Below are positions 45,001 to 48,000 of a DNA stretch of 64,000 nt, in pieces. The position numbers are program-made. Location of the stretch: NCBI GenBank assembly GCA_965637545.1, contig OZ281500.1, positions 18,910,001 to 18,974,000 on the forward strand, read 5' to 3'. How positions within the stretch are numbered: position 1 is the first letter of the stretch; every line of letters begins with the position of its first letter. The DNA is from Phallusia mammillata. Taxonomy: Eukaryota.

Positions 45001-48000
45001 GTTTTTATATATTGATTGTATTTTTTAAATTCAACAAACAAATAACTGCCACTTAACAAACAGTCTTGTACGTTGCCTAGAAACTTGGACCAATATGACT
45101 TTGCCTTCAAATGATCCTACAATGTAAACGAAAATGCTTTATTCCAGTTGCAGCAATAAAAAGCCCAAATTTATTGTCAGCCCAGACGTTTATTGGCAAT
45201 CTGATTTGCATACTTGCAAATATCAGCTACAAATTACGCAAACGGACAATGACCGGCAACCAATCAACTGCGGTAATTTGGTAATTAAAATATCCCCGGC
45301 GGCAAGAGATGCATTCTCTCCTGAAAACCGACCATTACAACATCTCTTTGTGTGAGTTAAGTACGAAAGTACAATAGAAGAAAGAGAAAATTCCTTCTTG
45401 GTAAAAGCTAAAACAATTAACACGACACCGCAGTTGTACCGATTATTTGGTTTGTACGAGTCGTGCAAAAAAACAAGTAGAAAAGTCGTTTTGTAAAAGA
45501 TTTAATAGAACTAAATGGAGGACTTACTTGTTACGAAAGAACTTGGACATTGCCAGATGTCCGCCGAAATCAATGTGATCATCTATCAGGGTCCGACTAG
45601 AAAATTCAGCTCGAGGAATCAGAAATGTATATCGGCTCTTCTTATCATAACCGGAATATGCGTTGGATTCAATATCTCGATGTTTACCTCAGAGAACCAC
45701 GCAGCGACCAAAATAAGTAACAGAAACGGAAAACAGTTTACGGCATTTTCAGCACTCCCAACGTAAGTGTTGACTTTTGTACAGTAGTTTTGCTAATAGA
45801 GTTCTCGCCCTAAGAAGTAGCCTAACTCGGAATTGACAAATTGTCAAGCATTTTTCTACTGACCAAGACTTTAAATGACACTTTTTGCGCAATGTTTTAG
45901 GAGACCTACCTTTGAGGCAGATGAAAATTCATTACTTCCAAAAAACTTTGCAGAAAATGTTTCACAGAACAGCGCTACTAAGCGGTATGGTTGGATTCAG
46001 TAGAACAAGAAGCCAAGTAACTTGCCACAACATCCCATAAACTTTCCACGCCGCTCATAGCATTTGCATATTGCACAAGTAGAAAGTCCCGCAAATCTGA
46101 ACTGTTTCTAAAAAAAGTTGAACAAAAATTTGGTAAAAGTAAATGTTAAGGAAATGAAAATTAAAAACAGTTAAAAGTACAGTTTTCATTCTTCGTGGTC
46201 TGTGCAAAATTATTATTTTCTAATTGGTAAGAAATGTGTAAAGACACTTAGGCTAATCATTCTATAATAATGAACTTACTCCGATGAATAGTTTGGAATT
46301 AACTCAGAATAGTAAATCAAGTCTGTAAGATGAGTTGGAAGCCACCAGTTACTTAAATGAATACAGCACTCCGAATAACCTGAAAAATACTATTGTTAAT
46401 AACTATATTGGCATACATAACACTTAAAATTGTTTTAAATTTGAGTTTGTTACCCATTTCAATTCAGCCAGTTATTTGAATATTAATTGTGTTCTGTTAA
46501 CTTCGACAATTTGTATGTAGACACAAAAATACAAGCACTATCACACTATTTTGCACAAATAACTTCAACCTGAATGTGTTTTGCCAACCTGTGAAACATC
46601 AAACTTGAAAGCAGCAAGTAAAATATTATCCAAAGCACTGAGTTCTGTGTGGCCTCCCATACATGTCAATGCACAACTGAAATAAAACCCATTTATGTCA
46701 CTTATTGTAAATTCCACAAAACTAAAACACAAATAAAAAATAAAACAAAAAATATTTGTCTAGTTTTCATTGGTCACACGCGATTTGTTTTATAACCCTA
46801 CACATGGACCTGTTTTGTAAAGAAACACAGAGTTGGGTGTTTCTATATTCAATGTCTGTTAATTGCCTAGGGTTTATACACTGGGTTTTGAATTGTATAT
46901 TTGTTAATAATGACGTAAGCATTTGCCAATTATTTTATAACAAGTATATTACTTTACATATCTTTTAGGCCATATCATTTAATTATTTTTAGACATTTTT
47001 TCCATAGTTTGTTGATTTTGTAGGATTTGGCTGTTGTTTATTTAATTTAAAGAAATGCGCAACTTAACTTAGTTGCCAAATGATGGATATTACCTTGCTG
47101 TGATAATGCAGGTCATACAAGTTTATTGTTGGGTTTGTGTACAAGAGGTAAGTGATGAGGATTCGATACCAACTTCCACTTAGTTCTGAGAGTTGATGAA
47201 AAACTTCTTCATCGCCACACAAAATCTAAAAACAACATCGAAGTATTAAATTGTTAAATGAATTTTTCTATTCAAACTGTTGTGTTGCTAAACAAATGAC
47301 AAACCCAACAAAAATGGGAATAAATAATACAGATTTTACACATAAGTGAAAGTTTTTATTGTTTTGCTTATAACAAGGAGGTGCTAAAGCAGTTTTCCAA
47401 ATTAAGTACAAATGGCACAGGCGCTTCTTGTTGCATACTTACCTTACAAATTGTCTTTAATTCAATTACAGTGTCAAAGTCACCATCATGTAATCGCTTT
47501 AAACATTCATCCTGCCAATGTCTCCATTTCATTTCAAACTCAGCCGTAGACTGGCCTTGGTAAAACTAAAAAAAACTATAAATAAGTTTTCTGCAAACTC
47601 TACGGAAAAAAACAACGCAAAGAGTGAAAGAAATTTTGAAAATGAATCAGCTTTTCNNNNNNNNNNNNNNNNNNNNNNNNNNNNNNNNNNNNNNNNNNNN
47701 NNNNNNNNNNNNNNNNNNNNNNNNNNNNNNNNNNNNNNNNNNNNNNNNNNNNNNNNNNNNNNNNNNNNNNNNNNNNNNNNNNNNNNNNNNNNNNNNNNNN
47801 NNNNNNNNNNNNNNNNNNNNNNNNNNNNNNNNNNNNNNNNNNNNNNNNNNNNNNNNTAAACTAACTTGGTAATGTATAATAAGCCAGATCTTTTGAAGGC
47901 GTAGTACCATGATAGTTCAGAATAGCTTGGTAATTATTTGTTATTGACCTACAAAAAGTTAAACACAAGATTTACAAGACGAAGTATCACCAAACAACAG

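What the first reader, a model, noticed from the sequence alone, without database searches (positions are those of the whole stretch)
45901..46107. Mid-exon fusion of a GT31 galactosyltransferase gene to antisense NUP85
Seen: at 45986/45987 the plus strand stops matching GT31 gene 2 inside exon 2 (...ACT AAG CGG T). From the other side, a minus-strand NUP85 exon reads open (…SYLASCSTESNH) right up to the same base. Two unrelated genes therefore break inside exons at one junction. The junction also creates a phase-2 donor, CG|GTATGG, in the same phase as the native donor 12 nt further on, so this copy could in principle splice in frame to exon 3 at 52811. Inference: most likely a chimeric long read or mis-join at a contig end. 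The alternative is a real duplication/inversion breakpoint.
Basis: partly seen in the sequence, partly recalled or inferred. Interest (0 to 1): 0.68.

Follow-up and report, generated by a model that had tools for sequence, protein, structure and literature searches.

The report
Assembly artefact: chimeric contig end
The apparent fusion of a glycosyltransferase gene to a backwards piece of the nuclear-pore gene NUP85 is most likely a genome-assembly error at a contig end beside a gap, not a real rearrangement.

Summary
At 45986/45987 the plus strand leaves GT31 gene 2 inside exon 2, and a minus-strand NUP85 exon begins.

The context points to an artefact:
- The NUP85 piece is only 1,670 bp (45987-47656) and runs straight into the window's only N run (47657-47856, 200 N).
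- The first base after that run restarts the 4,669 bp that precede the junction. 41318-45986 matches 47857-52528 at 99.91%.
- The two copies differ by three one-base homopolymer-length indels and one substitution.
- The right-hand copy carries on into the intact exon 2, a GTAAGT donor and exons 3-5.
- The NUP85 piece encodes only residues 251-438 of the 651-aa Phallusia mammillata Nup85. It has two one-base G-run discrepancies that break the frame.

This matches the "overlapping sequences at contig boundaries" false duplication described by Rhie et al. 2021, here with a foreign tail on the left contig. A chimeric read or molecule is my inferred cause.

I put an artefact of any route at about 0.85 and a real rearrangement at about 0.1. 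No reads or eukaryotic assemblies were available, so this is not proven. Interest is low.

The parts
41318..45986 (.). Copy A of the repeated block: the last native stretch of the left contig. It holds the upstream region, exon 1 and the truncated exon 2 of GT31 gene 2.
   Evidence: Self-blastn: 41318-45986 = 47857-52528, 99.914% over 4,672 columns. There are four differences in all.
45557..45762 (+). GT31 gene 2 exon 1, copy A. It runs from the ATG at 45557 and encodes a short tail plus a hydrophobic anchor. The donor GT is at 45763-45764.
   Evidence: Reading. Identical to 52099-52302 at the protein level. There is no cDNA evidence.
45901..45986 (+). GT31 gene 2 exon 2, copy A, cut 12 nt before its native end. 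A possible GT donor sits at 45985-45986.
   Evidence: 28 of 31 exon-2 residues present.
45986..45987 (.). The junction. It is blunt, with no shared letters visible between the GT31 continuation and the expected NUP85 continuation.
   Evidence: The expected NUP85 continuation is inferred from residue 439 of P0001.
45987..47656 (-). Foreign tail of 1,670 nt: an internal fragment of the NUP85 locus on the minus strand, 31.5% GC. It ends at the N run.
   Evidence: Pfam PF07575 on 3 ORFs. Residues 251-438 of P0001 map here and nowhere else in the window. GC.
47443..47565 (-). NUP85 exon, residues 251-291.
   Evidence: Exact match of 41 aa. Splice sites read.
47094..47225 (-). NUP85 exon, residues 292-335.
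   Evidence: Exact match of 44 aa. Splice sites read.
46589..46676 (-). NUP85 exon, residues 336-364. It has one extra G in a G run near 46656-46658. Read in frame, it stops after 16 codons.
46279..46379 (-). NUP85 exon, residues 365-398. It has one G too few in a G run at 46371-46372.
45987..46107 (-). NUP85 exon, residues 399-438, cut at the junction.
47657..47856 (.). Run of 200 N, the only one in the window. I take it for a fixed-size scaffold gap between two contigs. It was not filled or looked up.
47857..52528 (.). Copy B of the repeated block: the start of the right contig. It begins 11 nt into a 130-nt tandem repeat.
52443..52538 (+). Intact exon 2 of GT31 gene 2, with the native donor GTAAGT at 52539.
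52811..52954 (+). Exon 3 of GT31 gene 2.
   Evidence: for the splice sites. It is paralogous to gene 1 (40% identity over 45 aa, E 3.6e-7).
53611..54914 (+). Open frames 53611-53943 and 54408-54914, which hold the catalytic exons of GT31 gene 2. The exon ends were not fixed.
   Evidence: Pfam PF01762, E 2.4e-15 and 3.9e-7.

Best explanation
The junction is an assembly artefact. Two contigs of one scaffold cover the same locus.

The left contig follows the true sequence up to 45986. It then carries a 1,670-nt foreign tail taken from the NUP85 locus in reverse orientation. That tail most likely came from a single chimeric read or molecule that formed a dead-end branch in the assembly graph.

The right contig is the true continuation. 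It starts 4,669 nt before the branch point and runs on through intact exon 2, its donor and exons 3-5. Because the foreign tail blocked end-to-end merging, the scaffolder set the two contigs side by side with a 200-N spacer. The result is a false tandem duplication of 6,542 nt (45987-52528) and a false gene fusion.

Shown: the overlap, its position at the N run, the spectrum of differences, and the fragmentary and frame-broken state of NUP85. Inferred: that the N run is a contig boundary, that the tail comes from one chimeric read, and that an intact NUP85 lies elsewhere in the genome.
For: 1. There is one N run in the window, 47657-47856. The junction lies 1,670 nt to its left.
2. 41318-45986 = 47857-52528 at 99.914%. 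Copy B starts at the first base after the N run.
3. The only differences in about 4,670 nt are three one-base homopolymer-length indels and one substitution. That is an error-like spectrum, not a divergence-like one. The other repeats in the window are 76-94% identical, apart from one 47-nt match at 97.9%.
4. Copy B restores a coherent gene: exon 2 runs to a GTAAGT donor, in phase with exon 3, followed by frames that hit PF01762.
5. Only residues 251-438 of the 651-aa Nup85 are present. Tblastn found nothing significant for 1-250 or 439-651 (best E 0.49). Among the 399 ORFs of 50 aa or more, 3 hit Nup85, all of them in the tail.
6. The tail has two frame-breaking G-run discrepancies in 565 coding nt. 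The overlap has three indels in 4,669 nt shared between two copies. Poisson P is 0.015, or 0.052 if all three indels are charged to one copy; Fisher P is 0.09. This fits a thinly covered contig end.
7. Rhie et al. 2021 (PMC8081667, passages) describe this structure. Branch contigs keep an overlapping sequence at the contig boundary, and scaffolding then yields tandem copies. Ko et al. [quoted passage not shown]
Against: No reads, no Hi-C data and no other assembly of this species could be examined, so support for the junction from independent molecules is unknown.

An assembler also breaks inside real near-identical duplications. A copy that starts at a contig edge is therefore expected under a real duplication too.

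The excess of indels in the tail rests on two events and is only borderline (Fisher P 0.09). I had no cDNA-based control for consensus quality inside the contig: searches found no P. mammillata GT31 protein.

The blunt junction is equally compatible with end-joining in a cell.
Confidence: 0.65

Rival explanations
1. An artefact with a different cause. No chimeric molecule was involved. Assembly, gap-filling, contig-extension or polishing software joined the NUP85 piece to the contig end. The false duplication arises in the same way.
For: All the evidence for an artefact applies equally. The right contig starts inside a 130-nt tandem repeat, the kind of place where graphs break.
Against: Software mis-joins normally pass through a shared repeat or k-mer. 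No letters shared between the two partners are visible at 45986/45987 (the NUP85 side is inferred from the protein). The tail matches nothing else in the window.
Confidence: 0.2
2. A real and very recent rearrangement, fixed or heterozygous. A duplicate of the 5' part of GT31 gene 2 was joined by end-joining to an inverted internal fragment of NUP85, and the assembler then broke inside the second copy of the duplication.
For: The sequence exists in the scaffold. The junction is blunt, as after non-homologous end-joining. Contigs often end inside long near-identical repeats. The single substitution at 45516/52058 could be a true difference between copies or alleles.
Against: This reading needs a duplication of at least 4.67 kb with only one substitution, plus a copy of at least 1.67 kb of an essential single gene, plus a gap exactly between them.

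The differences are mostly homopolymer-length changes: 3 of 4 in the overlap, and 2 indels with no amino-acid changes in the 188 NUP85 codons. Real divergence is dominated by substitutions (general knowledge).

The contig dead-ends 1.67 kb past the junction. The other repeats in the window are 76-94% identical, apart from one 47-nt match.
Confidence: 0.1
3. The N run is a deliberate mask over real sequence. The scaffold is continuous, and the tandem arrangement with the NUP85 insert is as sequenced in one molecule.
Against: The repeat begins at exactly the first unmasked base, while the equivalent 200 nt left of copy A (41118-41317) are not masked. A round length of 200 is what a fixed spacer looks like (inference).
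Confidence: 0.03

Closest known systems
False 'homotype' duplication, type 'overlapping sequences at contig boundaries' (Rhie et al. 2021, PMC8081667, passages read)
   Same: A branch in the assembly graph. One contig keeps an overlap dovetailing to the path from which it branched. Scaffolding places the contigs in tandem with a gap between them. The copies are near-identical and differ by consensus-type errors.
   Different: Here the branch chosen by the left contig is foreign sequence from another gene and dead-ends after 1.67 kb. Read depth and k-mer copy number, which the authors use to call such cases, could not be examined.
False chimeric gain (FCG) of Ko et al. 2022 (PMC9516828, passages read)
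   Same: Exons of one gene (NUP85) appear inside the span of another (between exon 2 and exon 3 of a GT31 gene), next to an assembly gap. The authors show three ALDH2 exons placed inside ACAD10.
   Different: Their cases were shown to be false by comparison with a better assembly and with read data; this one was not. Here the inserted exons are antisense to the host gene.
Real chimeric genes born from segmental duplication and exon shuffling (recalled from general knowledge, no call)
   Same: A 5' gene part joined to foreign sequence, with a usable donor in phase.
   Different: There is no evidence of independent molecules, transcripts or divergence. The partner is antisense and frame-broken. 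The would-be intron would cross an N run and a second copy of the same exons.

Membership tests
False duplication in an assembly (criteria of Ko et al. 2022) | A gap between the duplicated pair on the same scaffold | tested here: met
   The 200-N run 47657-47856 lies between 41318-45986 and 47857-52528.
False duplication in an assembly (criteria of Ko et al. 2022) | Haploid-level or very low read depth over the copies | not testable with these tools
   No reads were available.
False duplication in an assembly (criteria of Ko et al. 2022) | Discordant or spanning read pairs; k-mer copy number above expectation | not testable with these tools
   No reads were available.
Homotype duplication at a contig boundary (Rhie et al. 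2021) | The duplicated block abuts a contig boundary and ends at a branch point | tested here: met
   Copy B starts at the first base after the N run. Both copies end at the divergence point 45986 = 52528.
Homotype duplication at a contig boundary (Rhie et al. 2021) | The copies differ by consensus errors rather than haplotype variants | tested here: inconclusive
   Three homopolymer indels and one substitution in about 4,670 nt. The pattern is suggestive, but one cannot tell which letters are errors without reads.
Nup85 nucleoporin (Pfam PF07575) | Match to the family profile above the curated cut-off | tested here: met
   Three exon ORFs score 24, 32.1 and 25 bits against a cut-off of 22.1. 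There are exact matches to residues 251-438 of P. mammillata Nup85.
Nup85 nucleoporin (Pfam PF07575) | A complete, open gene | tested here: not met
   Only 188 of 651 residues are present, with two frame-breaking one-base discrepancies.
GT31 glycosyltransferase (Pfam PF01762 Galactosyl_T) | Match to the family profile above the cut-off, plus an acidic DxD-type motif (motif recalled, not from a call) | tested here: met
   57.3 and 30.5 bits against a cut-off of 23. The translation contains VFVDDDCVV. The nearest named relative of the neighbouring paralogue is a Ciona B3GNT5-like protein at 45% identity, so the sugar transferred is not established.
Real chimeric or fusion gene | A junction supported by independent molecules and by a transcript | not testable with these tools
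   No reads or RNA-seq were available. No protein for GT31 gene 2 is in the protein collection.

The most novel reading that the evidence does not exclude
A real and very young rearrangement in Phallusia mammillata. It would have duplicated the promoter and first two exons of a GT31 gene and joined them, base to base, to an inverted internal fragment of NUP85. The result would be a locus able to transcribe NUP85 antisense RNA from a glycosyltransferase promoter, or a GT31 isoform four residues shorter.
Probability: 0.08. Interest if true: 0.4.

Novelty: not a real feature. Interest (0 to 1): 0.08.

Why it matters
The main value is for curation. If left in place, the scaffold holds 6.5 kb of false tandem sequence, a spurious partial GT31 gene and a spurious, frame-broken NUP85 fragment. 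These can inflate gene-family counts, produce fused gene models, and make a single-copy marker gene look duplicated or fragmented.

The case also gives a simple recipe for flagging such junctions without reads: check whether the sequence after a gap re-starts before an abrupt break in homology.

If the junction were real, it would be a very young gene-fragment fusion, but nothing here favours that.

Tried and rejected
- **More NUP85 in the window.** I scanned all 399 stop-to-stop ORFs of 50 aa or more against Pfam and ran tblastn with the full protein. Nothing lies outside the tail.
- **Other copies of the tail.** Self-blastn found no other copy in the window, and no repeat or inverted repeat at the junction.
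- **cDNA evidence for GT31 gene 2.** I searched its exon 3 for a cDNA-derived protein that would confirm the native exon 2-3 splice. No candidate was found, which the tool itself calls weak evidence.
- **A control for consensus quality.** I looked for a P. mammillata protein for GT31 gene 1, to judge consensus quality inside the contig. Only relatives at 55% identity or less turned up, the named ones from Ciona. The control could not be done.
- **Heterozygosity of P. mammillata.** I looked for a figure, to judge whether one substitution in 4.67 kb fits two alleles. I found only a general statement that ascidians are highly polymorphic (10.1101/371005, passages).
- **Rejected: a processed or retro-copied NUP85.** The fragment keeps its introns.
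- **Rejected: a fold-back chimera of the same locus.** The tail is not the reverse complement of anything in the window.
- **Rejected: a human contig.** The window matches an ascidian protein exactly.

Supplementary files of the papers were not seen. They are not expected to bear on this locus.

Full report
**What is at the coordinates**

The window is eukaryotic: about 38% GC, with short exons and canonical introns. I take it for ascidian, not human, because one exon is 100% identical to Nup85 of Phallusia mammillata (40 of 40 aa). Five exon segments match that protein exactly.

The finding's range, 45901-46107, consists of two truncated exons placed tail to tail:
- On the plus strand, exon 2 of a GT31 gene starts at 45901 after an AG acceptor and is open to 45986.
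- On the minus strand, a NUP85 exon starts at 46107 after an AG and is open to 45987.

A second copy of the GT31 sequence, 6,542 nt to the right, shows what should follow 45986. Twelve more exon bases follow, then a GTAAGT donor at 52539, in phase with exon 3 at 52811. The two copies part exactly between 45986 and 45987.

The donor said to be 'created' by the junction uses a GT that both copies already have. Only the four bases after it are new.

**What surrounds it**

The window has a single N run, 47657-47856, exactly 200 long. A self-comparison of the window gave 23 repeat pairs. By far the strongest is 41318-45986 against 47857-52528, at 99.914% identity over 4,672 columns.

The second copy begins at the first base after the N run. 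That point is 11 nt into a 130-nt tandem repeat. So the stretch between the junction and the N run is only 1,670 nt. What follows the N run is the same DNA that precedes the junction, this time continuing into an intact gene.

The two copies differ at four places only:
- three one-base differences in the length of short homopolymers (CC/CCC, T5/T6, T4/T5);
- one substitution (T/C at 45516/52058).

The other repeats in the window are 76-94% identical, apart from one 47-nt match at 97.9%.

**The NUP85 piece**

Pfam Nup85 (PF07575) is hit by three minus-strand ORFs in 45987-47656. Of the 399 ORFs of 50 aa or more in the window, those 3 are the only ones that hit it.

The P. mammillata protein (P0001, 651 aa) maps as five exons covering residues 251-438. 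Nothing in the window matches residues 1-250 or 439-651 (best E 0.49). The fragment keeps its introns, so it is genomic and not a retro-copy.

Two details were new:
- In the exon for residues 336-364, a G run is one base longer than the protein requires.
- In the exon for residues 365-398, a G run is one base shorter than required.

Read in the frame set by the previous exon, the first of these gives a stop after 16 codons. Every other residue is identical.

Two indels in 565 coding nt is more than the overlap would predict. The overlap shows three indels in 4,669 nt shared between two copies. Poisson P is 0.015, or 0.052 if all three are charged to one copy; Fisher P is 0.09. This is suggestive, not firm.

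**The GT31 side**

Frames at 53611-53943 and 54408-54914 hit Pfam Galactosyl_T (PF01762). A paralogue lies on the minus strand at about 38173-39841, 34-49% identical in exons 3-5. Its nearest named relative is a Ciona B3GNT5-like protein at 45% identity. The family is secure, but the sugar specificity is not.

No cDNA-derived protein for gene 2 was found. The exon 1-2-3 model therefore rests on splice sites, phase and open frames alone.

All protein searches were done exon by exon.

**Most likely explanation**

The layout matches a known kind of assembly error. Rhie et al. 2021 (PMC8081667; passages read) describe false 'homotype' duplications. A branch in the assembly graph leaves a contig with an overlap dovetailing to the path it branched from, often about a read long. 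Later scaffolding then produces tandem copies.

Ko et al. 2022 (PMC9516828; passages read) name a gap between duplicated pairs on one scaffold as a primary mark of false duplication. They also define 'false chimeric gain', in which exons of one gene appear inside another.

Here the branch point is 45986. The left contig took a branch that is foreign and dead-ends after 1.67 kb. The right contig is the true branch and keeps a 4.67-kb overlap. The foreign tail prevented the two ends from being merged or trimmed.

I infer that the foreign branch came from a chimeric read or molecule, for three reasons:
- The junction is blunt, and no letters are visibly shared between the partners.
- The tail is short.
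- The consensus in the tail looks thinner than in the overlap.

That last step is inference. A software mis-join is the main alternative within the artefact reading.

**What argues the other way**

Without reads I cannot count the molecules across the junction. A real, very recent duplication would also make an assembler break inside the second copy, so a copy starting at a contig edge is not decisive on its own. The N run could in principle be a mask. The statistics on the tail's errors rest on two events.

A real event would need three things together:
- a duplication of at least 4.67 kb with one substitution;
- a copy of at least 1.67 kb of an essential gene with no amino-acid change but two frame-breaking homopolymer changes;
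- a gap exactly between them.

I put this at roughly one in ten.

**Context from papers**

The P. mammillata genome is described as unpublished but hosted in ANISEED (PMC13746493, passages). An early assembly had an N50 of 94.8 kb and a total of 234 Mb (PMC4702943, passages). I did not try to work out which assembly the window comes from.

**What stayed unchecked**

- The rest of the genome, including the native NUP85 locus.
- Read depth and RNA-seq.
- The nature of the N run.

**Verdict**

This is almost certainly not a biological feature. Its interest is low, and limited to assembly curation.

Noticed in passing
window 18806-36871, + strand: A tandem array of at least four YhhN-family (PF07947) genes. 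C-terminal exons lie at 20641-20883, 28088-28333, 32935-33150 and 36674-36871 (E 8e-15 to 1e-10). Neighbouring copies are 81-92% identical in DNA.
   Followed up: partly
window 45516 and 52058: The only substitution between the two copies of the overlap turns ACG (copy B) into ATG (copy A). It lies 14 codons upstream of, and in frame with, the ATG I took as the GT31 gene 2 start (45557/52099). It could be an allele or a consensus error, and it would change the predicted N-terminus.
   Followed up: partly
window 37987-39904, - strand: A second GT31 gene (gene 1) lies divergently oriented to gene 2. PF01762 hits fall at 37987-38748 and 39169-39339. The nearest named relative is a Ciona lactosylceramide 1,3-N-acetyl-beta-D-glucosaminyltransferase A-like protein, 45% identical.
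   Followed up: partly
window 41307-41649 and 47858-48188: A 130-nt tandem repeat of about 2.5 copies, 76% matches. The right contig starts inside it.
   Followed up: partly
window 44389-44452 (and 50931-50994): A stretch of about 64 nt that matches its own reverse complement at 92% (a palindrome), present in both copies of the overlap.
   Followed up: no
window 11726-12255 and 26043-26570; 55357-55589 and 60331-60564: Two dispersed direct repeats, 92% and 94% identical. They may be a mobile element or conserved intron sequence.
   Followed up: no
window 1939-2202, - strand: An open frame with a weak EF-hand pair match (PF13499, E 4.7e-4, 20.9 bits, below the cut-off of 30).
   Followed up: no
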